Shown: positions 42,732 to 58,792 of the stretch, piece by piece
How the letters are laid out: every line of letters begins with the position of its first letter
Position numbering within the stretch: the stretch's first letter is position 1
DNA from: an uncultured delta proteobacterium
GTDB lineage: Bacteria > Desulfobacterota > Binatia > Binatales > Binataceae
DNA: 64,000 nt
Direction: 5' to 3'
NCBI GenBank assembly: GCA_963842085.1
Contig: CAWJET010000001.1
Location: forward strand, 2,336,001-2,400,000
The notes under the pieces: generated by a model
What the model saw: the letters and a program-made list of their open reading frames with translations, nothing else
Told to the model about the DNA's origin: nothing
Database searches by the model: none
Position numbers and translations under genes: made by a program

Positions 42732-42876
42732 TCGGCGTTGCGGCCGGCAGGCCGTGTCCGCGATGGGTCCAAACGGGCCGCGTGATTCAGGAGCAACGCA
42801 GGACGAATTTCGTGGATTGCGGCTTCACAACTTGACGGCCGGTTCAACACGACGATAGATTCGAGGCGCCTTGGCC

Positions 42877-43787
42877 ATGAGCCGATTTCAGCTGCCGCGT
42901 TACGTGGATCTCATCATCCCGACCTTAACGGCTCTCAAAGAACTGGGAGGCTCGGCCACAATCCACGAGCTGAATGCGGCGGTTATCAGAAAGCTCGGAC
43001 TGACCGAACAAGAACTGAGCGCTGACGATATCCGAACGCAGTTGGACTTGAAGCTTACTTGGACCAGAACGATCCTCAAAAATTCGGATCTCGTAAGCAA
43101 TTCAAGCCGTGGCGTCTGGGCGATTCGCGATCCAGAACTAGATCTCCAAAGGGTTGATCCCGAAGCAGTCTGGCGCCACCACAGAGAGCAGTATCCCTCC
43201 GTCGAACCCCGGCCCCATGAAGCACCGGCTGCCCGGGCTGGTGTGACTGAAGAGGTGGCCAGTGTTACGAGAGTAGCCGAGCGTGGACCCTCGACAGACG
43301 AGGATGCTACCGAAGCACCCCAAGATTCGGGGTACGAGCTTGCAGTCCTCCAGAGGTTGCTGGCCTTATCCCCACCTGGATTTGAGCGTTTTTGCCAGCG
43401 CTTACTTCGCGAATCCGGTTCGAACAGGTGGTTGTAACCGGCCGGTCTCACGACGGCGGAATAGATGGGGCCGGGATCCTACGGATTAATCCTCTCGTAA
43501 GCATTAAGGTGCTCTTTCAGTGTAAGCGTTACTCTGGCTCTGTCGGTGTCCGCGAGATTCGTGATTTTCGCGGCTCCGTGCACGGAAGGGCGGACAAAGG
43601 AATCATAATTACAACCGGCTCGTTCACCGACGAGGCTAAGAAGGAGGCTGTCCGAGACGGCGCTCTCGCCATCGACTTGGTGGATCGCGAAAAGCTAATT
43701 GAATTATTGGAGAACCTCGAGCTCGGGCTCACACGGCGTGAGACCTATCAAATCGACGCCGCGCTGTTCAGGGAATTCGAACCCTAG
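42877..43787 (+). pseudogene. mrr: Mrr-family type IV restriction endonuclease, split by a 1-nt deletion
   Basis: Mrr_N (PTLTALKELGGSA..WTRT.LK..RGVW) plus Mrr_cat (DGGIDG, QCKRY, GIIITTG, LVD); GAA TCC GGT TCG at 43411-43422 lacks one T of RESGFEQV. Confidence 0.88.
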
Positions 43788-44195
43788 TTGTCGAACTGGC
43801 TGCGCTATAACGGTCACGTGCTTCCAATCGATCCGCTATGCCCCGGTCCGGGTCGTCTTTGGCAGTGAAGGCGAATAGTCGCAAGGCCGACTCTCAGCTT
43901 GCGAATCCTAGACTCGACGCGCATCCTCGCCCGCGCAGATCCTGCACGAAGCGACGCAATAAGTCAGCGCCGCTCAACTGCTTCGCACCATACCATTTCG
44001 ACAGCGCCTCGTCGCTGCTTGCTTCGTCGGGATGATAGACAGGCGATCGCTATGCTTCGTCACGATGGACAGACGAGCCCTCGCGTTGTTTACTTCGGTC
44101 GGGATGAAAAGTAGTGCGCAGTGGGGATGCGCACAAAAACTCTCAGGCTCTAAGGTATCACTATCGCGCAAACGACTATTGGCCGCGATACGTAA

Positions 44196-44230
44196 CATAT
44201 ACTAAGTAGTGATTCGCTGAAGTGCATTGG
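44196..44230 (+). repeat. Right copy of the 35-bp diverged direct repeat
   Basis: CATATACTAAGTAGTGATTCGCTGAAGTGCATTGG. Confidence 0.7.
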
Positions 44231-44273
44231 CTTGCGACACGATTGACTTGACCATCATGCGGGAGCGGCACCG

Positions 44274-45953
44274 ATGAACAGAATCAAGGGTCTGCTGGCG
44301 GCGGCAACGGCTACGGTTCTCCTGATGCTGGCCACGCCCGCGTTCGCACAGTACAAGCCGTGGCCGACACCGCTGCCGGAAGCGCCCAAGTGGGGTGACT
44401 ACGACAGCGGCCATACCTGGCGTGATGCCGCGTGGTGGTGGCAATCGCAGCCCGACTGGGTCAAGCACCATCACCCTGAATGGTGGGGAGATTTCGACAA
44501 CGATCACTTATGGCACCCCGCCTGGTGGTGGTGGGATTCGCAGCCGGCATGGGTACGGGAACATCACCCGGAATGGTGGGGCGCGTTTTACCAGGGCCAG
44601 TGGTATCCGGCGACGTGGTGGGCTCAATACCAGCCGGAATGGGTGCAACAGTATCATCCTGAATGGTGGGGCGCTCCCGACAACGGCTTTTGGTATCCCG
44701 CGGGATGGTGGTGGAGGCTCCAGCCCGCTTGGGTGTTGCAGAATCACCCCGAATGGTGGGGCGACGATTGGGACGGCTTGTGGTATCCCGCTCCGTGGTG
44801 GTGGCAATTACAGCCCCAATGGGTAATCGCGCATCATCCGGATTGGTGGGGGGATTACTACGAGGGCGTCTGGTACGCGGCGCCGTGGTGGTACCAGTAT
44901 CATCCCGAATGGGTTCCGCTGCATCATCCGGACTGGTGGGGTGAGTTCGACGATCACCATTATTGGCGCCCGGCGGGATGGTGGTGGCAGTATCACTCCG
45001 ACTGGTGCCGCCAGAATCATCCCGATTGGTGGGGCGACTTCGACGACCAGCACATCTGGCGGCCTGCGGGCTGGTGGTGGCAGAACAATCCCAACTGGGT
45101 GCGCGAAAATCATCCCGACTGGCGGGGTGCCTTCGACGACAACAAAATCTGGCGTCCTGCAAGCTACTGGTGGCAAACGAAGCCGGACTGGACGCGCGAG
45201 AATCATCCCAACTGGTGGGGTGACTTCGACGACAAACACATCTGGCATACCGACACCTGGTGGCATCTGCATGACGCCACGTGGGCGGAACAGCACCATC
45301 CCGAATGGAAGGGCGACTACGACGACAAGCACGTCTGGCACGACCTCCATTGGTGGGCGCAGAAAGACTCTGCCGTGGCAATGCAGCGTCATCCCGATTG
45401 GAACGACGCGATGCACGAGTCGGTAGCGCGCCAGCATGGCGTGCAAGAGGAAGCTCTCCAGCGTCAGCACGATGTGCAGCTACAGGATCTCGAGCGCAAT
45501 CGCGCCGAGCAGCAGCAGGAGGCCGAGCGCACTCAGGCCGCGCAATTACGGCAGCTTCAGCAAAAGCATGACGCGGAGACGCAGGCCTTTGAGCGTCAGC
45601 ATCTGCAGGAAGTGCAGCAGCGCGTGAAGGCCGCTCCTCAAGCCGAGGAGAATGGTGCTCAGTGGCGCCAAGTCGAGGAGAGTCACACTCAGCAATCGGC
45701 GGAACTCCTGCGCCGCCATCAAGCGGAGACGCAGGCGCTGGTGCGCCAGCAGGCGGCGGAACAGCAAAAGGTCCAGCAACGGCAGTTTGCCCGCCAACAG
45801 GATCTACAGCGCCAGCACGCGCAGGAAATGCAGTCCTTTGAGAAGCAGCATGCGCAGCAGGTGCAGGCGTTCGAGCGTCCGCGCGGCGGCGGCGGAGGCG
45901 GCGGGCATGTCGAAGCACCGCACGGCGGCGGCGGTGAGAAAGGGCATCGCTAG
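44274..45953 (+). CDS. Secreted Trp/His-rich tandem-repeat protein with a Gln-rich coiled-coil tail; function unknown
   Basis: Signal peptide ending PAFA; 11 repeats of WGD(F/Y)DxxHxWxPAxWWWxxxPxWVxxxHP(E/D)W at 44391-45401; GGAG SD. Confidence 0.9.
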   Translation: MNRIKGLLAAATATVLLMLATPAFAQYKPWPTPLPEAPKWGDYDSGHTWRDAAWWWQSQPDWVKHHHPEWWGDFDNDHLWHPAWWWWDSQPAWVREHHPEWWGAFYQGQWYPATWWAQYQPEWVQQYHPEWWGAPDNGFWYPAGWWWRLQPAWVLQNHPEWWGDDWDGLWYPAPWWWQLQPQWVIAHHPDWWGDYYEGVWYAAPWWYQYHPEWVPLHHPDWWGEFDDHHYWRPAGWWWQYHSDWCRQNHPDWWGDFDDQHIWRPAGWWWQNNPNWVRENHPDWRGAFDDNKIWRPASYWWQTKPDWTRENHPNWWGDFDDKHIWHTDTWWHLHDATWAEQHHPEWKGDYDDKHVWHDLHWWAQKDSAVAMQRHPDWNDAMHESVARQHGVQEEALQRQHDVQLQDLERNRAEQQQEAERTQAAQLRQLQQKHDAETQAFERQHLQEVQQRVKAAPQAEENGAQWRQVEESHTQQSAELLRRHQAETQALVRQQAAEQQKVQQRQFARQQDLQRQHAQEMQSFEKQHAQQVQAFERPRGGGGGGGHVEAPHGGGGEKGHR

Positions 45954-46731: not shown

Positions 46732-47565
46732 TCAATGCGGAATCCAGATCGGGGCGGCGCTGAACAGGTGGTCAACGATACCTATCTGGTAGGCGAGGAA
46801 CAGGCCAAAGCCGAAACTCAGGAGGCCTGAGCCGGTGACGAGTCCCTGATGGATCCGCGACGCACGCCGCGACGCGACCATGAACGGCGTGGCGATCGCG
46901 GTCGTGATCAGGCCCATCCCGATTATCGTGCCGACGCAGAAAATCGCGAGGTAGAGCGTCGCCCATAGCGGCTCCGGAATCGCGCTCAGCACCAGCAACG
47001 CAATCGCGGCGCTGCCCGCCAGTCCATGAACCAGTCCCACGCCGAAGGATCTCAGCAGCGGCCGCCGCGCGGCCAACGTCGGCAATCTGTCGCCCGGGAT
47101 GCGATGATCGTGATGCATCGCGTCGTCGTTCGCCTCGTGAAGGTCAACATGAACGTGGGGATGCGAATGCATGGCGTCGTCATGAGCGTGCGCGTGCGCA
47201 TGGACGATCAGGCCTTCATCCTTCGACGAACGTCCGCGCATTCGAGTTGCCGCGTTGCGCATCAAGCTTGCTGCCGCGCCGACGCCGAGCAAAATCAGCA
47301 CGACCGCGACTGCAAATTCCATCGCCAGTCCCAGCCGCGTCGGGATCGCAATTTTGAAAACTATGATCGCGGCGCCCACCAGCAGCACCGTGATCGTGTG
47401 CCCGAGTCCCCATACGATGCCGACACGGGTCGCGGCCACCAACCTACGCTCGCGGCTGAGGATGGTCGTGACGGCGATCACGTGATCGGGATCGGTTGCA
47501 TGGCGCATTCCGAGCACCAGTCCGAGGAGCGCGATCGCGAGCGGCGCGGCATTGGCAGGGATCAT
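46732..47565 (-). CDS. NiCoT (HoxN/NixA)-superfamily nickel/cobalt transporter
   Basis: RHATDPDH, GLGHT, a His-rich loop and GLVHGLAGSAA. Confidence 0.9.
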   Translation of the reverse strand: MIPANAAPLAIALLGLVLGMRHATDPDHVIAVTTILSRERRLVAATRVGIVWGLGHTITVLLVGAAIIVFKIAIPTRLGLAMEFAVAVVLILLGVGAAASLMRNAATRMRGRSSKDEGLIVHAHAHAHDDAMHSHPHVHVDLHEANDDAMHHDHRIPGDRLPTLAARRPLLRSFGVGLVHGLAGSAAIALLVLSAIPEPLWATLYLAIFCVGTIIGMGLITTAIATPFMVASRRASRIHQGLVTGSGLLSFGFGLFLAYQIGIVDHLFSAAPIWIPH

Positions 47566-49961: not shown

Positions 49962-50082
49962 ATCAAGAGTCCGACCTTCAGACGTCGGAAACGCCCGATT
50001 CTCCAGCAAAATCAAGCAATTTTAGCCCGATTTCCGACGAAACTGGCTTCGTTCGGATTGCGGAATGACGGAGGTGTCGTCC

Positions 50083-51267
50083 ATGAACCCGGCTAGCTTA
50101 CACATTTTGACGATCAATGGCGGCTCGTCGAGCATTAAATTCGCGTTGTTTGAAGCTGGCGAGCCGCTACGCCGCGCGTTGGAAGGAAGTATTGACCGGA
50201 TCGGCCTGCCGGGCGCCACGTTTGCAGTAAAAGGTTCGGAGAACTTTTCGCGACTGTTGCCCGTGCCGAACCACACCGTAGCAGTGAATGTGTTGATGGA
50301 TTGGCTGGAGAAACGCAGCGGCCATGATGCATTGACCGCGGTGGGGCATCGTGTGGTGCATGGCGGGCCGAAATATTTCGAGCCGCAGCGAATCACTGCG
50401 GAGATGGTCGAGGATCTGCACGGGCTCAGTCCTTTCGATCCTGAGCATATGCCGGAGGAGATCCTGCTGACCGAGGCGTTTCATCACCGATTTCCTGACC
50501 TGCCCCAAGTCGCGTGTTTCGACACGGCTTTTCACCATGACCTCCCGCAAGTCGCCCGGTTGTTGCCGATCCCGCGCCGCTACGAAGCGCAAGGTGTGCG
50601 GCGGTACGGGTTCCACGGGTTGTCGTATACGTTTCTGATGGGAGAACTGGCCCGCCTGGCCGGATCGGAAACGGCACAAGGCCGGATCATCCTCGCACAC
50701 CTGGGCAACGGCGCGAGCTTGGCGGCCGTGCGTGACGGCAAATCCGTGGACACAAGCATGAGTTTTACCCCAACAGCCGGGGTGCCGATGAGTACCCGCT
50801 CAGGCGATCTCGATCCCGGACTGGTTTGGTATCTGGCGCACACTGAAAAAATGAGCGCGAAGGAATTCAACGAGATGGTCAATTTCCAGTCCGGGCTGCG
50901 CGGCATGTCGGGGACTAGTTCCGACATGCGTGACTTGCTCGACCGTGAAACGCAGGACGTGCGAGCGGCTGAAGCGGTCGCACTGTTTTGCTACCAGGTC
51001 AAGAAATGGATCGGCGCATTCGCGGCGGCGTTGGGCGGATTGGACACGCTGGTGTTCACCGGCGGGATCGGCGAAAACGCGCCCAAGGTCCGCACGCGGA
51101 TTTGCGATGGGCTGGGATTCCTTGGAATCGAACTCGAAGAGAAGCGAAACGCAGCGAATGAGGGCGTGATTTCTGCAGCGGCAGGCCGGGTCGCGGTCCG
51201 CGTCATTCATACGGACGAAGAACTCATAATCGCCAGGACGGTTTGCCGCGTTCTCGGCCTTGGCTGA
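50083..51267 (+). CDS. ackA: Acetate kinase
   Basis: NGGSSSIK, GHRVVHGG, FDTAFH, RYGFHG, HLGNGAS, GGIGEN and TDEE. Confidence 0.96.
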   Translation: MNPASLHILTINGGSSSIKFALFEAGEPLRRALEGSIDRIGLPGATFAVKGSENFSRLLPVPNHTVAVNVLMDWLEKRSGHDALTAVGHRVVHGGPKYFEPQRITAEMVEDLHGLSPFDPEHMPEEILLTEAFHHRFPDLPQVACFDTAFHHDLPQVARLLPIPRRYEAQGVRRYGFHGLSYTFLMGELARLAGSETAQGRIILAHLGNGASLAAVRDGKSVDTSMSFTPTAGVPMSTRSGDLDPGLVWYLAHTEKMSAKEFNEMVNFQSGLRGMSGTSSDMRDLLDRETQDVRAAEAVALFCYQVKKWIGAFAAALGGLDTLVFTGGIGENAPKVRTRICDGLGFLGIELEEKRNAANEGVISAAAGRVAVRVIHTDEELIIARTVCRVLGLG

Positions 51268-51284
51268 AAGAAGCGAATTGAACC

Positions 51285-53714
51285 ATGAATACAAACACTC
51301 TTTCCCCGGAACTGCTCCACAAGATGGATGCGTACTGGCGCGCTGCCAACTATCTGTCGGTCGGCCAGATTTATCTCTATGACAATCCGCTGCTGAAGGA
51401 GCCACTGAAACTGTCGCACGTGAAGCCGCTGGTGGTCGGACATTGGGGCACGGTGCCAGGTCAGAACTTCATATACGTGCACCTCAACCGGGTCATCAAG
51501 AAGTATGACCTGGATATGTTCTACATTGCCGGTCCGGGCCACGGTGGGGCGGCGTTGGTGGGCAACGTTTACCTCGAAGGCACCTGGAGTGAGATCTATC
51601 CGAACGTCACCCAGGACGAAGCCGGGATGAAAGAGCTGTTCAAGCAATTTTCGTTTCCCGGCGGGATCTCCAGCCACGTTGCGCCGACGACGCCGGGCTC
51701 GATTCACGAAGGCGGCGAGCTGGGGTACTCGCTCAGCCATGCTTTTGGGGCCGCGTTCGACAATCCCGATCTGATCGTCGCCTGCATCATCGGCGACGGC
51801 GAGGCGGAAACGGGCCCGCTGGCGACCGCATGGCAGTCCAACAAGTTTCTCGATCCAATTACCGACGGAGCCGTGCTGCCGATCCTGCACCTCAATGGCT
51901 ACAAGATCAGCAACCCGACCGTGCTCGCCCGCATCGAGCACGAGGAGTTAGAGCAATTTCTGCGAGGCTGCGGCTGGACGCCCTACTTTGTAGAAGGTGA
52001 TGAGCCGGAGAAGATGCATCAACTCATGGCCGCCACCATGGAAAAGGTCATCGAAGACATTCGGCAAATCCAACGCAACGCACGTGACAAAAACGACACC
52101 ACTCGGCGACGTTGGCCAATGATCGTTCTGAGATCGCCCAAGGGTTGGACAGGCCCGAAAGTTGTCGACGGCTTACAAATCGAAGGCACCTTCCGATCGC
52201 ACCAGGTGCCGCTGCTGGTGGACCCCGAGCATCCCGACCATGTCAAGCTGCTTGAAAGCTGGATGAAGAGCTACAAGGCCGAGGAGCTGTTCGACGAGCA
52301 TGGCTGTCTTATTCCGGAATTGGCCGAACTGGCGCCCAAGGGCGAGCGGCGGATGGGCGCCAATCCGCACGCCAACGGCGGCATCCTGCTGCACGATCTG
52401 CGAATGCCGGATTTCCATGACCATGCGGTGAAGGTGCCTTCGCCCGGCGCCGTCGAGGGCCAGGATACCCTGGTGCTGGGCAAGTTCCTGCGTGACGTGG
52501 CCAAGCTGAATCAGGAGCAGCGCAATTTCCGGATCTTCGGTCCCGATGAGACACTGTCGAATCTGTTGGGCGCGGTTTTTGAAGTCACCGACCGTCAGTG
52601 GGACGCCCGGGAAGTTAAGAATGACGAATTCCTCGCGCCCGCCGGACGCGTGCTGGACTCGATGCTCAGCGAGCATCAGTGCGAGGGTTGGCTCGAGGGT
52701 TACCTGCTCACCGGACGGCACGGGCTTTTCAATAGCTATGAGGCCTTCATTCGCATCGTCGACTCAATGTTCAGCCAGCACGCCAAGTGGCTTAAGGTGA
52801 CGTCGGAACTGCCCTGGCGCCGGAAGATCTCGTCTTTGAACTATCTGCTGGCCTCCCACGTCTGGCAGCAGGATCACAACGGCTTCACGCACCAGGACCC
52901 AGGTTTTCTCGACCACGTGATCAACAAGAAGGCCGATATCGTGCGCATCTATTTACCGCCGGACGCGAACTGTCTGCTGTCGGTCTTCGACCACTGCCTG
53001 CGCAGCCGGCATTACGTCAACGTGGTGGTTGCAGGCAAGCACGCCCTGCCCCAATGGCTGACGATGGATGCGGCGGTCGTGCATTGCACGGAAGGAATTG
53101 GCATCTGGCAATGGGCCAGCAACGACCAGGGCGCCGAGCCGGACGTGGTGATGGCCTGTTGCGGAGATACACCCACGCTGGAGATCCTGGCTGCCGTTTC
53201 CATCCTTCGCGAACATCTGCCTGAACTGAAAATCCGGGTGATCAACGTCGTCGATCTCATGAAGCTGCAGCCCGCCACTGAGCACCCTCACGGTCTCAAC
53301 GAGAGAGATTACGACTCGCTTTTCACCCAGGACAAGCACATCATCTTTGGCTTCCATGGATACCCATGGCTGGTCCACCGGCTGACCTACCGGCGCACCA
53401 ACCGCAACCTACATGTTCGGGGCTATAAGGAAGAGGGCACTATCACGACGGCCTTCGACATGAGGGTGCAGAACGATCTGGATCGATTCCACTTGGTTCA
53501 AGACGTGGTGGATCGCCTTCCGCATTTGGGCGCCAAGGGGAGCTATCTAAAGCAGATGATGCAGGACAAGCTCATCGAGCACAAACATTACATCGACAAG
53601 CACGGCCAGGACTTGCCGGAAATCCGGAACTGGAAATGGAAGCAGCCGAGCAGTAACAACGCCGATCCGAGATCATTCGGGATGGAATCGGGAAGGCAGC
53701 TATCTCATGAATAG
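51285..53714 (+). CDS. xfp: Xylulose-5P/fructose-6P phosphoketolase
   Basis: [28 protein letters not shown] and [12 protein letters not shown]. Confidence 0.97.
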
Positions 53715-53961: not shown

Positions 53962-56751
53962 ATGGCTACTGAGAAGAGTTCACCAGAAGATGCGAAGACT
54001 GTAAACGATCCAAAGGACTCCGCGCCAGAAGGATCCGAGGCAAGTACAGCTAAGTCCAAGGGTTCGAAGCCCAGCGTGGATGAGACCCGCAGGCGGGCCT
54101 ATGGAATTTTTCAGGCTCGCCATGGTGAACCCGGCAGTGCGCTCGAGGACTGGCAAAAGGCCGAGGCCTCAGTTTCCGCAGATGCAGCCAAGGCAGATAC
54201 GTCCAAGGCCGATGCGCCTAAGGCAGATGGGGCAAAGGCAGATGCATCTAAAGGTGCTATGAAGGTACCAACTGACACCGGGACGATCGAGGAAGCGGTC
54301 ACCAAGTTCAAGTCGAGTATCAAGGATGGGCTGACCCAGGAAGAGGCGGCCGGCCGGCTCAAGAAGGACGGTCCCAACGCGATCGAAGAGAAGCGCATCA
54401 GCCCCCTCAAGCGGTTCCTGACGTTTCTTTGGGGACCTATCGCGTGGATGATCGAAATTGCTGCGATACTCTCCGCAGTGGTTCGGCATTGGGAAGACTT
54501 CGTCATCATCTTTTTCATGCTGGCGCTGAATGCGGTGGTCGGCTTCTGGGAGGAATTCAAGGCCGACAACGAGATCGAGGCGCTCAAAAAGAATCTCGCA
54601 CTGCATTCGCGAGTGCTGCGCGATGGCAAGTGGAGTGACGTCGAGGCGAAGACCCTGGTGAGTGGGGATATTGTCATGGTCAAACTCGGCAATGTCATCC
54701 CCGCCGATATGAAGCTGGTCGATGGCGACTACCTCAGCATCGATCAGTCGGCGCTGACGGGCGAGTCACTGCCGGTCGACAAGAAGAAAAACGACGTCGC
54801 GTATTCAGGATCAATCGTGCGAATGGGCCAGATGAATGGGCTGGTCGTCGCCACCGGAATGAACACGCTCTTCGGCCGCACGGCACGACTGGTCGAGAGC
54901 GTTCAGACGGTTTCCCACTTTCAGAAGGCAGTCCTCAAGATAGGTAATTTCCTCATTCTGATCACGCTCGGCCTGGTCGCATTGATCCTGACAGTCGCGC
55001 TATTTCGCGGCGACCCGCTGGTCGAAACCCTGCTATTCGCACTGATTCTTACGGTAGCTGCAATCCCGGTCGCATTGCCCGCCGTCCTGTCCGTCACGAT
55101 GGCCGTCGGCGCATCCGTGCTTGCCAGGATGAAGGCTATCGTGTCCCGCCTCGCCGCGATCGAAGAGATGGCCGGCATGGACATTCTCTGCTCAGACAAG
55201 ACCGGCACGCTCACCAAGAACGAGCTCAAGCTGGGCAGTCCTGTGGTTTTCAAGGCGAGCAACGATCAGGACCTGATCCTGGGAGGGGCCTTGGCGTCGC
55301 GAAGGGAGGGCGGCGATGGCATCGACGAGGCCGTCCTCAAAGGTCTCAGCGATCAGTCGGCGTTAAAAGCCTATCAAATCACTCATTTCACGCCGTTCGA
55401 TCCGGTCAGTAAGCGAACCGAGGCCGAGGTCAAACACGACAATGCCACTTTCAAAGTCTCGAAGGGCGCCCCGCAAGTGATTCTGGATCTGGTCCATCCC
55501 GATGCGGACGCGCGCAAAAAAGCTGAAGGGCAGGTTAACGATCTGGCGGCCAAAGGCTATCGCACCCTTGGTGTCGCGCGCACCAATGCCCAGGGAAAGT
55601 GGGAATTCCTTGGACTACTGTCTCTGTCCGATCCGCCCCGCGACGATTCAGCCTCGACCATCGCGACCGCGCGAAAAATGGGGCTGCAGGTGCGCATGGT
55701 AACCGGCGACAATCTCGCAATAGCGCGCGAGATATCGCGCGAACTCAAGCTGGGACCGAACATCGCGGTTGCGAGCGATCTTTTTCCCGACGGTAAGGCT
55801 GACGACAGTGATAAGGTAGACGCGGCCGACGGTTACGCAGAGGTTTTTCCTGAGCATAAGTTCAAGATCGTCAAGGCCCTTCAGGCGGGTGGACATATCG
55901 TCGGAATGACCGGTGACGGCGTCAACGACGCTCCCGCGCTCAAACAGGCCGATTGCGGAATCGCGGTAAGCGGCGCGACCGACGCCGCTCGTGCGGCCTC
56001 GGATCTGGTGCTCACGGCGAAAGGTCTCTCTGTAATCACCGCTGCCATTGCAGAAGCGCGCAAGATATTCGAGCGCATGAACAGCTACGCAATCTACCGG
56101 ATATCCGAAACCATCCGCGTCCTGCTCTTCATGACGCTCGCGATTGTGGTGTTCAACTTCTACCCGGTAACCGCGGTCATGATCGTGCTCATCGCGGTCC
56201 TAAATGACTTCCCGATCATGATGATCGCGTACGACAACACCATCGTAGCTCCACGCCCGGTGCGCTGGGACATGGAACGCGTACTTACCGTCAGTTCGGT
56301 TCTCGGCGTGCTGGGAGTTATCGCTGCATTCGGCCTTTTCTGGATCGCAGAGAAGTACCTTCACCTGCCCCGGCCCATGGTTCAGAGCCTCATCTTCCTC
56401 AAGCTGCTGGTCGCCGGTCACCTCACCATTTACATCACGCGAAGCGTGGGAACGTTTTGGCGGCGCCCGTGGCCCAATTGGCGTCTGGTCGTTGCCTGCG
56501 AAACAACCCAGGTCATCGGAACCCTGGCCGCGGTCTATGGATGGGGCATGACGCCGCTGGGATGGAAGTACGCACTGTTAGTGTGGGGCTATGCGCTGGT
56601 ATGGTTTTTCATCAACGACATGGTGAAGGTTGAGGTTTACCGCCTGATGCATCTGGGCACGGCACGCCATCAGCGCCACCTGGCAAGAGTCAACGCCAGC
56701 CTTCATCCGGCCGGAGTCCCCGCCAAGGCGGCGGCTCCAGCCGCCAGTTAA
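53962..56751 (+). CDS. Plasma-membrane-type proton-efflux P-type ATPase (P3A) with an N-terminal DUF2934-like domain
   Basis: TGES, AIPVALPAV, DKTGTLT, KGAP, DPPR, TGDGVNDAP and YRISET. Confidence 0.93.
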   Translation: MATEKSSPEDAKTVNDPKDSAPEGSEASTAKSKGSKPSVDETRRRAYGIFQARHGEPGSALEDWQKAEASVSADAAKADTSKADAPKADGAKADASKGAMKVPTDTGTIEEAVTKFKSSIKDGLTQEEAAGRLKKDGPNAIEEKRISPLKRFLTFLWGPIAWMIEIAAILSAVVRHWEDFVIIFFMLALNAVVGFWEEFKADNEIEALKKNLALHSRVLRDGKWSDVEAKTLVSGDIVMVKLGNVIPADMKLVDGDYLSIDQSALTGESLPVDKKKNDVAYSGSIVRMGQMNGLVVATGMNTLFGRTARLVESVQTVSHFQKAVLKIGNFLILITLGLVALILTVALFRGDPLVETLLFALILTVAAIPVALPAVLSVTMAVGASVLARMKAIVSRLAAIEEMAGMDILCSDKTGTLTKNELKLGSPVVFKASNDQDLILGGALASRREGGDGIDEAVLKGLSDQSALKAYQITHFTPFDPVSKRTEAEVKHDNATFKVSKGAPQVILDLVHPDADARKKAEGQVNDLAAKGYRTLGVARTNAQGKWEFLGLLSLSDPPRDDSASTIATARKMGLQVRMVTGDNLAIAREISRELKLGPNIAVASDLFPDGKADDSDKVDAADGYAEVFPEHKFKIVKALQAGGHIVGMTGDGVNDAPALKQADCGIAVSGATDAARAASDLVLTAKGLSVITAAIAEARKIFERMNSYAIYRISETIRVLLFMTLAIVVFNFYPVTAVMIVLIAVLNDFPIMMIAYDNTIVAPRPVRWDMERVLTVSSVLGVLGVIAAFGLFWIAEKYLHLPRPMVQSLIFLKLLVAGHLTIYITRSVGTFWRRPWPNWRLVVACETTQVIGTLAAVYGWGMTPLGWKYALLVWGYALVWFFINDMVKVEVYRLMHLGTARHQRHLARVNASLHPAGVPAKAAAPAAS

Positions 56752-58434: not shown

Positions 58435-58792
58435 TGGTGGAGGCGGGGGGAATTGAACCCCCGTCCGAAGGCCTTCCGGCGACGGCCACTACACGCTTAG
58501 TCTGCGAATTTTAGCTCGCGTCAGAAACGCCCACAGACGGGCTTCGCTAACGCCAGCCGGCTGAAGTTTCGGTAAGCCGCCCAGCCGGTGAACTGCGGTT
58601 CCCTAGCCCACTAAATGACGCCCCGACCCGCTGCCATGGGCGAGCAGCGGCGGGACGCTAGCGGCCCTTAGGCCGCCAGAGCGTAACCGTTATTGTCTGC
58701 GGGTAAATTTCGCAGTCTGCCAGTTTTACGGGTCGACAGCACCCGGCGTGCGACCATGGCCATATTGTCTTCGTCGAATCCAGTTCGCCCCC
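58435..58792 (-). ncRNA. ssrA: tmRNA; tag peptide ADNNGYALAA
   Basis: 5' GGGGGCGAACTGGATTCGAC; 3' GACGGGGGTTCAATTCCCCCCGCCTCCACCA; tag ORF at 58668-58700; adjacent smpB. Confidence 0.97.

What the first reader, a model, noticed from the sequence alone, without database searches (positions are those of the whole stretch)
44274..45953. Secreted protein built from 11 extremely Trp-rich 30/31-aa repeats plus a Gln-rich coiled coil
Seen in sequence: after a Sec signal peptide, 44391-45401 encodes 337 aa forming 11 tandem units with consensus WGD(F/Y)DxxHxWxPAxWWWxxxPxWVxxxHP(E/D)W. Seven units are 31 aa and four central units are 30 aa. By my count 71 of the 337 residues are Trp (about 21%), and HP(E/D/N)W is invariant. 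The DNA repeats have diverged while the Trp positions are kept, which implies selection on the protein. About 170 aa of Q/E/R/H-rich helix and a Gly-rich tail follow. Established: Trp is normally about 1% of residues and is the costliest amino acid; choline/glucan-binding repeats (about 20 aa) and YXWGXW repeats have different periods. Inference: an unrecognised solenoid or filament with stacked aromatics. Possible roles are polysaccharide or aromatic binding, His/Asp metal binding, Trp-chain electron hopping, or a surface/matrix polymer.
Basis: partly seen in the sequence, partly recalled or inferred. Interest (0 to 1): 0.8.

Follow-up and report, generated by a model that had tools for sequence, protein, structure and literature searches.

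The report
Exported tryptophan-core repeat protein of Binatota
This is a real, strongly conserved gene of uncultured soil bacteria (Binatota) for an exported protein whose 11 repeats are predicted to form a rod held together almost entirely by tryptophan, a predicted shape with no match among solved structures and no known function.

Summary
ORF 44274-45953 (+) encodes 559 aa: a signal peptide, 11 units (7 of 31 aa, 4 of 30 aa) with 71 Trp in 337 aa, then a 183-aa Q/E/R/H-rich tail.

The gene is under purifying selection: dN/dS is 0.07-0.18 against 25 orthologues, and 65 of 71 Trp are invariant. It occurs in 60 loci, essentially all Binatus/Binataceae MAGs. No Pfam, NCBIfam or PDB sequence family matches.

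AlphaFold2 models the repeats with pLDDT 90 and pTM 0.82. Each unit is a beta-hairpin plus two 7-residue helices. Foldseek finds no neighbour in PDB or BFVD.

The tail is two ~75-residue helices built from an 11-residue repeat, roughly E-R-Q-H-A-Q-Q-x-Q-x-L/F. A model supports an antiparallel homodimer.

A unit profile finds 139 proteins among 1.84 billion. Many of those read are small, His-rich exported proteins with only two units.

My best guess is a rigid Trp-core scaffold that displays His/Asp/Glu arrays and binds metal cations in the cell envelope. That function is inferred, not shown (about 0.35).

The parts
44165..44273 (+). Conserved upstream block. It holds a promoter-like -10 box (window TATACT at 44198-44203; TATAAT in most orthologues) and a conserved leader with the motif TTGGCTTGCGA(T/C)(G/A)CGATTGACTTGAC.
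   Evidence: Alignment of 15 orthologous upstream regions. No Rfam match. 12 predicted pairs with 0 compensatory changes, and the window's own sequence breaks the main stem. It is therefore not shown to be an RNA structure. The promoter scan at its own threshold found 0 sites.
44261..44265 (+). Ribosome-binding site GGGAG, 8 nt before the ATG.
   Evidence: Read from the sequence. A purine-rich block is conserved in the orthologues.
44274..45953 (+). Complete coding sequence, 559 aa plus stop.
   Evidence: dN/dS is 0.07-0.18 against 25 orthologues.
44274..44348 (+). Sec-type signal peptide (aa 1-25, MNRIK + hydrophobic core + AFA|Q). No lipobox Cys and no twin-arginine motif.
   Evidence: Read from the sequence. 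The same pattern occurs in the orthologue N-termini. Inferred; no predictor was run.
44349..44390 (+). Pro-rich N-terminal linker QYKPWPTPLPEAPK (aa 26-39).
   Evidence: Conserved as Q(Y/F)xPWPxPxPxxP in the orthologues. No regular secondary structure in the model.
44391..44576 (+). Units 1-2 (31 aa each). The hairpin tip is acidic/His: G-D-(F/Y)-D-x-x-H-x-W.
   Evidence: Model: beta-hairpin plus two 7-residue helices per unit.
44577..44936 (+). Units 3-6 (30 aa each). The hairpin tip is short: G-x-x-x-x-G-x-W-Y-P-A, with no Asp/His tip.
44937..45401 (+). Units 7-11 (31 aa each), with the acidic/His hairpin tip. Units 10-11 are the most divergent.
45402..45632 (+). Tail helix 1 (the model helix spans aa 374-453). 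Built of 11-residue repeats, about E-R-Q-H-A-Q-Q-x-Q-x-L.
   Evidence: Interface residues in the dimer model recur every 11 residues.
45654..45872 (+). Tail helix 2 (aa 461-533), with the same hendecad repeat. It packs antiparallel to helix 1.
45873..45950 (+). Disordered Gly/His C-terminal end (aa 534-559; G7-H-V-E-A-P-H-G4-E-K-G-H-R).
   Evidence: pLDDT is below 50 for aa 540-559. 23 of 50 family proteins have PHG[GA] or HGGG in the last 60 aa, and 30 of 50 end in HH or HR.

Best explanation
What it is (well supported, about 0.85). A functional, stand-alone gene of a Binatus-like bacterium (phylum Binatota). It encodes a Sec-exported protein of about 66 kDa when mature.

Residues 40-376 form one domain of fixed length: 11 stacked copies of an undescribed 30/31-aa unit. 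Each unit has a beta-hairpin (W-G-D-x...x-W), helix A (A-x-W-W-W-x-x), helix B (P-x-W-V-x-x-H) and an H-P-E-W linker. The hydrophobic core of this domain must be built mainly from tryptophan.

Residues 374-533 form a hairpin of two ~75-residue helices made of 11-residue repeats. This hairpin probably pairs antiparallel with a second chain into a four-helix rod, which would put one Trp domain at each end. The last ~25 residues are a flexible Gly/His tail.

The protein is an 11-unit expansion of a wider, unnamed family of exported His/Trp/Asp-rich proteins that usually carry two units.

How it most likely works (inferred, about 0.35). The Trp core is a rigid, very stable scaffold. The functional surface is the regular array of conserved His, Asp and Glu: D3, D5 and H8 at seven hairpin tips, H27/H28 and E/D30 at every unit junction, His at position 4 of the tail hendecads, and the PHGGG-type end. 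I propose that this array binds metal cations in the periplasm or cell envelope, acting as a buffer, store or hand-over protein.
For: Real and selected:
- dN/dS is 0.070-0.184 against 25 orthologues over 337 ungapped codons. 65 of 71 Trp are invariant, against 84 of 266 other columns.
- The family occurs in 60 loci. Exactly 11 units were found in 27 of 56 proteins examined, and 26 of those have identical 31/30 spacing, down to about 54% overall protein identity.

Fold:
- The full-length AF2 model has pLDDT 84.2. The repeat-only model has pLDDT 90.2 and pTM 0.82 with the same secondary structure.
- Trp core: 71 of the 117 large hydrophobic residues in the repeat region are Trp and only 23 are L/I/V/M. 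Unit profiles from 308 + 175 units show W/F/Y/V/A at the hydrophobic positions.

Tail:
- Identity at lag 11 is 40, against 9-21 at the other lags.
- In the hendecad consensus, His sits at position 4 in 62-73% of rows and L/F at position 11.
- Homodimer model: score 0.51, best of 3 controls 0.00. This mark was reached by 20 of 30 proteins solved as pairs of one chain and by 1 of 23 solved as single chains. The runs agree in at least 84% of contacts and the partner pLDDT is at least 79. My own alignment was used, so the counts hold only roughly.

Metal-binding inference:
- Conserved polar positions in 31-aa units: D3 85%, D5 98%, H8 80%, H28 97%, E/D30 81%.
- Wider relatives are small exported proteins of 91-112 aa with two units and very many His. 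Longer relatives end in HGHGH- or DHDHGHH-type tails.
- 23 of 50 family proteins have PHG[GA]/HGGG near the C-terminus and 30 of 50 end in HH or HR. The PHGGGWGQ octarepeat of prion protein is a known Cu(II) site (abstracts of PMC2663819 and PMC6721516).
- In 21 of 60 loci a NiCoT/NicO-like membrane protein with a His-rich loop lies just downstream, convergent.
Against: - No metal-binding family or motif was matched by any library.
- The four central units lack the Asp/His hairpin tip.
- The invariant H-P-E/D could simply be a structural cap. This would be analogous to the TPLH motif of ankyrin repeats, which I recall and did not test.
- The NicO-like neighbour is convergent, not co-transcribed. 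It is conserved only among close relatives that share all their synteny. Distant loci have unrelated housekeeping neighbours.
- No metal-responsive regulator is adjacent. The conserved upstream block matches no known element.
- Many of these MAGs are titled as coming from peat or acid soil. There His would be largely protonated and a poor ligand (inference).
- I could not read the model coordinates, so the burial of Trp and the exposure of His/Asp are argued from composition and helical periodicity, not measured.
- The dimer pass could reflect the general likeness of long helical hairpins to solved coiled coils.
Confidence: 0.35

Rival explanations
1. A cell-envelope structural or adhesive rod. 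The rigid solenoid plus coiled-coil dimer acts as a spacer or strut, or as a binder of a polymer (peptidoglycan, exopolysaccharide or outer-membrane glycan), with exposed aromatic hairpins stacking on sugars.
For: - A domain of fixed length (27 proteins with exactly 11 units) plus an elongated helical dimer is the build of a structural protein.
- The hairpins of units 3-6 (W-G-x-x-x-x-G-x-W-Y-P) recall the G-x-W-Y hairpins of choline/cell-wall-binding repeats. That motif is recalled, not tested.
- Trp-rich repeat domains that bind glucans exist in plants: ESV1/LESV (search listing and start of the abstract of bioRxiv 10.1101/2023.06.09.544376).
- The gene stands alone, as many envelope proteins do.
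Against: - No hit to CW_binding_1, SLH, LysM, OmpA-like or any carbohydrate-binding family even at E up to 10.
- No membrane or lipid anchor and no sorting signal at either end.
- Most Trp seem needed for the core, which leaves few for a sugar platform.
- It does not explain the extreme His content of the two-unit relatives.
Confidence: 0.2
2. A binder of flat aromatic ligands in the periplasm, such as haem or other tetrapyrroles, carotenoid-derived or lignin/humic phenolics. His would serve as axial ligand and Trp as stacking partner.
For: - Several wider relatives carry an N-terminal helical HP/NP repeat with sub-threshold matches to Pfam MHB (mycobacterial haemophore): 5 of 23 proteins (E 3.5e-4 to 0.048) and 1 of 11.
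- The Atlas placed an MHB-annotated, Binatota-rich cluster third for P0171, at a score of 0.79, which the tool rates as a lead only.
- Binatota are predicted pigment and tetrapyrrole producers (PMC8262859, abstract and passages).
Against: - All MHB matches are below the gathering score, and the window's protein has no such N-terminal domain.
- There is no CXXCH motif and only one Cys.
- If Trp forms the core, it is not free to stack on ligands.
Confidence: 0.1
3. A stress protectant: a sacrificial antioxidant or UV screen (Trp and His are prime targets of singlet oxygen and radicals), or a hydrophilin acting in desiccation through its 11-mer helical tail.
For: - Calculated molar absorbance at 280 nm is about 427,000 M-1 cm-1.
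- The repeat region is 21% Trp and 9.5% His.
- The 11-residue periodicity of the tail is also the period of group-3 LEA proteins (recalled).
- The hosts live in soil and peat (titles).
Against: - Position-specific conservation of 65 of 71 Trp and a fixed, confidently folded architecture suggest a defined structure, not bulk chemistry.
- The tail is predicted to be a stable helical hairpin, not disordered.
Confidence: 0.08
4. A tryptophan wire. The stacked indoles would form a hole-hopping path that moves charge along the rod.
For: Only the geometry: about 6.5 Trp per unit in a regular stack of 11 units.
Against: - No redox cofactor site, no haem motif, one Cys, and no redox enzyme as a conserved neighbour.
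- Trp radical formation needs a very strong oxidant (established chemistry, recalled).
Confidence: 0.03

Closest known systems
Ankyrin repeat (33 aa)
   Same: The elements occur in the same order within a ~30-aa unit: a beta-hairpin followed by two short antiparallel helices, stacked into a solenoid. A conserved His-Pro-containing tetrapeptide lies at the unit boundary (HPEW here, TPLH in ankyrin; the latter is recalled).
   Different: No Pfam ankyrin hit even at E up to 10. No ankyrin or DARPin chain appears among the 26 Foldseek PDB matches with E up to 10. The core here is Trp, not Leu/Ala/Val. Ankyrin repeats are mostly cytoplasmic; this protein is exported.
HEAT_PBS-type 31-aa repeats (designed alphaRep proteins)
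   Same: The same 31-aa period. There is a weak in-register profile match, W-V-R....G..D-E....P, to alphaRep chain 6ft5_A: whole-sequence E = 0.0028, two stretches of about 8.5 bits each.
   Different: Each stretch alone is not significant (i-Evalue 7-10). alphaRep is all-helical, whereas this unit has a beta-hairpin. Foldseek finds no HEAT or alphaRep chain. Pfam finds no HEAT family.
Choline / cell-wall-binding repeats (Pfam CW_binding_1, about 20 aa) and YXWGXW repeats
   Same: Aromatic- and Gly-rich hairpin repeats in exported bacterial proteins, with a G-x-W-Y hairpin motif (recalled).
   Different: The period is 30/31 aa, not about 20. Two helices are added per unit. There is no hmmscan match.
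Unnamed two-unit exported His/Trp-rich proteins (e.g. P0034, P0088, P0109, P0171)
   Same: True relatives. They share the unit (G-D-Y/W-D-x-x-H-x-W-x-D-x-x-W-W-x-x-x-P-x-W-x-x-x-H-H-P-E/D-W). Among those I read, most start with a signal peptide and several end in His-rich tails. Of 16 relatives tested for tail periodicity, 5 of the P0171 type have the 11-residue tail repeat as their top lag.
   Different: They carry 1-3 units, usually spaced 40-41 aa apart, against 11 contiguous units here. They have about 5 Trp per unit against about 6.5. Many add an N-terminal HP/NP helical repeat that the window's protein lacks. None is characterised: every name given by a source is 'hypothetical protein'.
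Prion protein octarepeat PHGGGWGQ
   Same: The C-terminal end carries repeats of (G)n-H-x-E-A-P-H-G-G-G. PHG[GA] or HGGG occurs in 23 of 50 family proteins. The octarepeat binds Cu(II) (abstracts of PMC2663819 and PMC6721516).
   Different: This is motif-level resemblance in a disordered tail. There is no homology and no Trp after the Gly run. Binding was not tested.
Hendecad (11-residue) coiled coils and long helical-hairpin domains (PLC-beta C-terminal domain, p85 iSH2)
   Same: Two long antiparallel helices. The weak Foldseek matches of the full-length model look like long helical or coiled-coil chains of this kind and probably align to the tail, though the tool gave no aligned query positions (best 4gnk_E, E = 0.48). 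The period is 11 residues.
   Different: No match is significant (0 with E up to 0.001). The composition is Gln/Glu/Arg/His-rich, with a conserved His in each repeat.

Membership tests
Any curated Pfam family (including CW_binding_1, WXXGXW/YXWGXW, ankyrin, HEAT, TPR, Sel1) | hmmscan score at or above the family's gathering score | tested here: not met
   With E up to 10, the only row is PKK at E = 6.7, 7.3 bits against a cut-off of 25, and it lies in the Gln-rich tail.
Any NCBIfam protein family | hmmscan match | tested here: not met
   0 families at E up to 10.
Any protein with a solved structure (by sequence) | Significant profile match to a PDB chain over the repeat region | tested here: not met
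   The A3 profile gave 8 hits with E up to 1, best 0.068. The two alignments printed are Gln-rich tail matches, and most of the listed query ranges lie in the tail. The A4 profile gave a best hit of alphaRep at E = 0.0028, with no single stretch significant. The A6 profile gave consensus TPR at E = 0.0049, about 3 bits per stretch.
Any solved fold (by structure) | Foldseek match with E up to 0.001 or a meaningful TM-score | tested here: not met
   For the repeat-only model (pLDDT 90.2): PDB gave 0 matches with E up to 0.001, best E = 1.1 and TMq 0.12. BFVD gave 0 such matches, best E = 0.12 and TMq 0.08. AlphaFold DB was not available.
Ankyrin-like solenoid | Hairpin + helix + helix unit that superposes on ankyrin structures | tested here: not met
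   The order of secondary-structure elements is alike, but no ankyrin chain appears in the Foldseek lists.
New family defined here: the 30/31-aa Trp unit | Match to the unit profile built from the window's 11 units, with conserved G2, W10, W15/16, W23, H28-P29, W31 | tested here: met
   139 of 1,835,955,588 representative proteins have E up to 0.001. Of the 56 proteins examined (the window's own plus 55 from loci), 55 carry 6-11 units. Only one ORF in the window matches.
Sec-exported protein | Basic N-terminus, hydrophobic core and an AxA cleavage site | tested here: inconclusive
   The pattern is visible and conserved, but no signal-peptide predictor was available and export has not been shown.
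Metal-binding protein | Measured metal stoichiometry, or a match to a known metal site | not testable with these tools
   Only composition, conserved His/Asp/Glu positions and a clade-limited NicO-like neighbour are available.

The most novel reading that the evidence does not exclude
The repeat domain is a new fold class in which about 65 invariant indole rings form a continuous aromatic core roughly 10 nm long. The hendecad tail would join two such domains into a rod some tens of nanometres long. The lengths are my own estimate; no coordinates could be read. Such an object could carry charge by hole hopping, or act as a metal-gated or pH-gated periplasmic ruler or store. No known bacterial protein has that kind of function.
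Probability: 0.05. Interest if true: 0.95.

Novelty: categorically new. Interest (0 to 1): 0.72.

Why it matters
Tryptophan is the rarest and most costly amino acid, yet this lineage keeps 65 of 71 Trp invariant in one exported protein.

If the model is right, the domain is a repeat fold whose core is built from indole rings instead of aliphatic side chains. No match was found among solved or viral predicted structures. That bears on protein design, on folding and stability, and on the limits of natural sequence space.

The gene is also a conserved, lineage-typical envelope protein of Binatota, a widespread soil and peat phylum with no cultured member. Its smaller relatives form an unnamed family of exported His/Trp-rich proteins. 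If that family handles metals, it would add a missing piece to metal homeostasis in soil bacteria.

Tried and rejected
1. Known repeat families. Pfam and NCBIfam scans of the protein and of 34 wider relatives gave nothing at threshold. MHB haemophore matches were sub-threshold only (6 of 34).

2. PDB by sequence. Only Gln-rich noise plus weak alphaRep and consensus-TPR rows. I rejected these as evidence of kinship.

3. Fold searches. No neighbour. The Mycoplasma EAGR-box chain 4dcz_A appeared twice at probability 0.03-0.04 and was rejected.

4. ESM Atlas. The window's protein is held letter for letter but has no usable hit. P0171 scored only 0.79-0.80, which the tool rates as a lead only.

5. 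Conserved operon partner. Synteny by tblastn, clustering of 1637 flanking ORFs and a Pfam scan of 64 neighbours in distant loci. No partner is shared across the family.

6. Fusions to other domains. No relative of 980-2795 aa was found (the tool calls this weak evidence).

7. Riboswitch or RNA element in the conserved leader. No Rfam match and no covariation.

8. Papers. Searches for Trp-rich repeat terms and for the motif strings HPEWW, HHPEW, HPDWW, WGDYD, WGDFD, GDWDD, FERQH, LERQH, ERQHA, APHGGG and EAPHGG returned only unrelated papers. In the library searched I found no description of this repeat.

9. Artefact or non-coding reading. Rejected by dN/dS. The 485-aa antisense ORF 44461-45918 is a by-product of the TGG/CCA-rich repeat.

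10. The careful tree search did not finish. Only the quick tree is reported.

Model coordinates could not be read, so I made no burial or distance measurements.
Full report
OBSERVATION. The ORF 44274-45953 (+) is open and encodes 559 aa. Nucleotides 44391-45401 correspond to aa 40-376, which is 337 aa with 71 Trp (21.1%). The whole protein has 73 Trp. Cutting at HP[EDN]W gives 11 units of 31,31,30,30,30,30,31,31,31,31,31 aa. Unit 6 holds one extra internal HPEW. In the unit alignment G2, W10, W16, H28, P29 and W31 are invariant. The DNA repeats have diverged: periods of 90, 93 and 180 nt with 72-77% matches. Units are 29-71% identical to each other. Among 115 long ORFs of the window this one has 12.9% Trp, the next has 3.6% and the median is 0.7%. 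The N-terminus (MNRIK, a hydrophobic stretch, AFA|QY) looks like a Sec signal peptide and is conserved in the orthologues. No predictor was available, so export is inferred.

IS IT A REAL GENE? Yes. A scan of species-representative genomes found 60 loci (103 pattern matches, 61 confirmed). Nearly all are titled Candidatus Binatus, Binataceae or the older 'uncultured delta proteobacterium', and the record titles point to soil, peat and palsa MAG projects. One 9-kb contig is labelled Acidiferrales (L008), but it carries Binatus-type synteny at 75-92% identity, so it is probably mis-binned. Over the 337 ungapped repeat codons, dN/dS against 25 orthologues is 0.070-0.184. 65 of the 71 Trp are invariant in 26 proteins, against 84 of 266 other columns. 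The long antisense ORF 44461-45918 is a by-product of the TGG/CCA-rich sequence.

ARCHITECTURE ACROSS THE FAMILY. I ran a unit HMM on the window's protein plus 55 proteins extracted from the loci (56 in all). Of these, 27 have 11 units, and 26 share the identical 31,31,30,30,30,30,31,31,31,31 spacing, down to about 54% overall protein identity. The others have 10 units (7 proteins), 9 (7), 8 (10, one of them truncated), 7 (2) or 6 (2, both fragments); one has none (L060, probably spurious). Units keep their positions: unit i of the window mostly matches unit i of distant orthologues best. The array is therefore old and of fixed length, not a variable surface repeat. A quick tree (the careful search did not finish) puts the window inside a Binatus clade that includes Ca. 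Binatus soli UBA7539. It also shows two deep clades. Two of the three MAGs with two copies had both copies in the tree, one in each clade, which suggests an old duplication.

NO KNOWN FAMILY. Pfam at E up to 10 gives only noise in the tail, and NCBIfam gives nothing. PDB sequence profiles give only Gln-rich noise, a weak alphaRep row (E = 0.0028, two stretches of about 8.5 bits, in register with the 31-aa period) and a weak consensus-TPR row for the small relatives. None is significant per stretch. Every name given by a source for relatives is 'hypothetical protein'. Paper searches for Trp-rich repeat terms and for the motif strings returned only unrelated work.

PREDICTED STRUCTURE. With 51 aligned sequences, AlphaFold2 gives mean pLDDT 84.2 for the whole protein. 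The repeats score about 85-94. The repeat region alone (48 sequences) gives pLDDT 90.2 and pTM 0.82 with the same secondary structure. Each unit is a beta-hairpin (G-D-F ... W-x-P), a 7-residue helix (A-x-W-W-W-x-x), a second 7-residue helix (P-x-W-V-x-x-H) and the linker H-P-E-W. Foldseek finds no neighbour. The PDB search has 0 matches with E up to 0.001, best E = 1.1 and TMq 0.12. The BFVD search also has 0, best E = 0.12. The matches of the full-length model look like long helical or coiled-coil chains and probably align to the tail.

In the repeat region, 71 of 117 large hydrophobic residues are Trp and only 23 are L/I/V/M. Profiles of 308 + 175 units show W/F/Y/V/A at the hydrophobic positions. 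I infer that Trp forms the core. I could not read the coordinates, so burial is not measured.

THE TAIL. Residues 374-453 and 461-533 are two long helices, and aa 540-559 are disordered. Residue identity at lag 11 is 40, against 9-21 at the other lags. Lag 11 is the top lag in 9 of 17 orthologue tails tested and in 5 of the 16 wider relatives tested, all of the P0171 type. The consensus hendecad in 24 close rows is [EQ]-R-Q-H-A-Q-Q-x-Q-[EA]-[LF], with His at position 4 in 62-73% of rows.

A two-copy model of aa 374-540 supports binding but does not show it. The score is 0.51 and the best of 3 controls is 0.00. This mark was reached by 20 of 30 proteins solved as pairs of one chain and by 1 of 23 solved as single chains. 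The runs agree in at least 84% of contacts and the partner pLDDT is at least 79. My own alignment was used, so the counts hold only roughly. The contacts (for example 403 with 425/429, and 414 with 414) indicate an antiparallel four-helix rod and recur every 11 residues. Long helical hairpins resemble many solved coiled coils, so the pass may partly come from likeness. If it is true, the two Trp domains sit at opposite ends of the rod (inference).

WIDER FAMILY. A profile of the window's 11 units, run over 1.84 billion representative proteins, found 139 with E up to 0.001, 45 with E up to 1e-10 and 6 with E up to 1e-30. Part of these are fragments or mis-framed calls of the Binataceae gene. 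Among the sequences I read, many others are different exported proteins with one to three units, usually two units spaced 40-41 aa apart. These include small proteins of 91-112 aa that are little more than a signal peptide plus two very His-rich units. They also include longer forms that add an N-terminal HP/NP helical repeat, an 11-residue His-containing tail repeat and an HGHGH-type end. The window's protein is thus an 11-unit, Trp-enriched expansion of an unnamed family. No form of 980-2795 aa was found (weak evidence).

CONTEXT. In the window the gene lies between a split Mrr-type restriction enzyme gene and a convergent glutathione-transferase-like gene. Next downstream is a His-rich NiCoT/NicO-like membrane protein. 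That transporter-like gene lies downstream in 21 of 60 loci, but only among close relatives that share the whole neighbourhood. In distant loci the neighbours are unrelated housekeeping genes such as RecG, CarB, ALAD, FtsW and enoyl-CoA hydratase. The gene therefore stands alone. About 110 nt upstream of the start codon are conserved in 15 loci and include a TATAAT-like box. There is no Rfam match and no covariation.

HOW IT MOST LIKELY WORKS.
- Shown: a selected, lineage-wide gene; a fixed 11-unit array; an 11-residue tail repeat; no known family.
- Predicted with good confidence: the hairpin-helix-helix solenoid, the helical hairpin tail and, less firmly, the dimer.
- Inferred: the Trp core is a scaffold, and the working surface is the periodic set of conserved His, Asp and Glu. 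In 31-aa units these are D3 85%, D5 98%, H8 80%, H28 97% and E/D30 81%. They act together with the His of the hendecads and the Gly/His end.

PHG[GA] or HGGG occurs in 23 of 50 family proteins and 30 of 50 end in HH or HR. The similar prion octarepeat binds Cu(II) (abstracts of PMC2663819 and PMC6721516). Taken with the extreme His content of the small relatives, the most economical reading is cation binding in the envelope. I put this at about 0.35.

Against it: the four central units lack the acidic tip, the H-P-E motif may be purely structural, the transporter neighbour is only clade-level synteny, and no metal site was matched. The rivals are a structural or glycan-binding rod (0.2), aromatic or tetrapyrrole binding (0.1), a stress protectant (0.08) and a Trp wire (0.03).

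NOVELTY. No sequence family, no structural neighbour and no paper could be found with the tools at hand. AlphaFold DB, metagenome contigs and cluster membership could not be consulted (closed collections). I rate the protein family and its predicted fold as categorically new. The caveats are that the fold is a prediction and the function is unknown.

Noticed in passing
window 42871-43787 (+): An Mrr-type restriction endonuclease is split into two overlapping ORFs: Mrr_N at 42871-43437 and Mrr_cat at 43392-43787. It is probably frameshifted. Neither half has a counterpart in any of the 60 related loci, so it looks like an insertion specific to this genome, sitting between the FAD monooxygenase gene and the Trp-repeat gene.
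   Followed up: partly
window 46732-47565 (-): A 277-aa membrane protein with an H-x4-D-H motif (RHATDPDH) and a His-rich loop (HAHAHAHDDAMHSHPHVHVDLH...). Its matches to NiCoT/NicO nickel-cobalt transporters are weak and below threshold. It lies downstream of, and convergent to, the Trp-repeat gene in 21 of 60 loci.
   Followed up: partly
window 44165-44273 (+), and the same position in L001-L021: About 110 nt upstream of the start codon are unusually conserved. They include the block TTGGCTTGCGATGCGATTGACTTGAC with internal direct repeats. There is no Rfam match and no covariation, and the window itself breaks the predicted stem. Whether this is an operator or a leader is unexplained.
   Followed up: partly
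window 44461-45918 (-); proteins P0003, P0006, P0007, P0009, P0010, P0015, P0155; loci L014, L016, L030, L031, L059: The TGG-rich repeat leaves long open frames in other phases and on the opposite strand. Several database proteins and several MAG loci show frame-shifted, run-on or truncated versions of this gene, so gene callers and assemblies handle it badly.
   Followed up: partly
proteins P0018, P0025, P0033, P0074, P0128, P0134, P0171 and others: The wider relatives carry an N-terminal helical repeat (F-L-x-x-H-P-x-V-x-x-x-L-x-x-N-P-x-L-x-Y-D-P-x-x-R-x-x-H-P-x-L). It gives sub-threshold matches to the mycobacterial haemophore family MHB in 6 of 34 proteins scanned.
   Followed up: partly
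window 58435-58792 (-): A tmRNA gene (Rfam 190 bits) with tag peptide ADNNGYALAA. No tRNA gene was found anywhere in the 64-kb window.
   Followed up: no
window 50065-53714 (+): An acetate kinase gene is followed directly by a phosphoketolase (XFP) gene. A P-type cation ATPase with an N-terminal DUF2934 lies at 53962-56751.
   Followed up: no
L008 (contig DATNLS010000183.1): This 9.3-kb contig is titled Candidatus Acidiferrales (Acidobacteriota). It nevertheless carries the Trp-repeat gene and four Binatus-type neighbours at 75-92% protein identity, so it is probably a binning error.
   Followed up: partly
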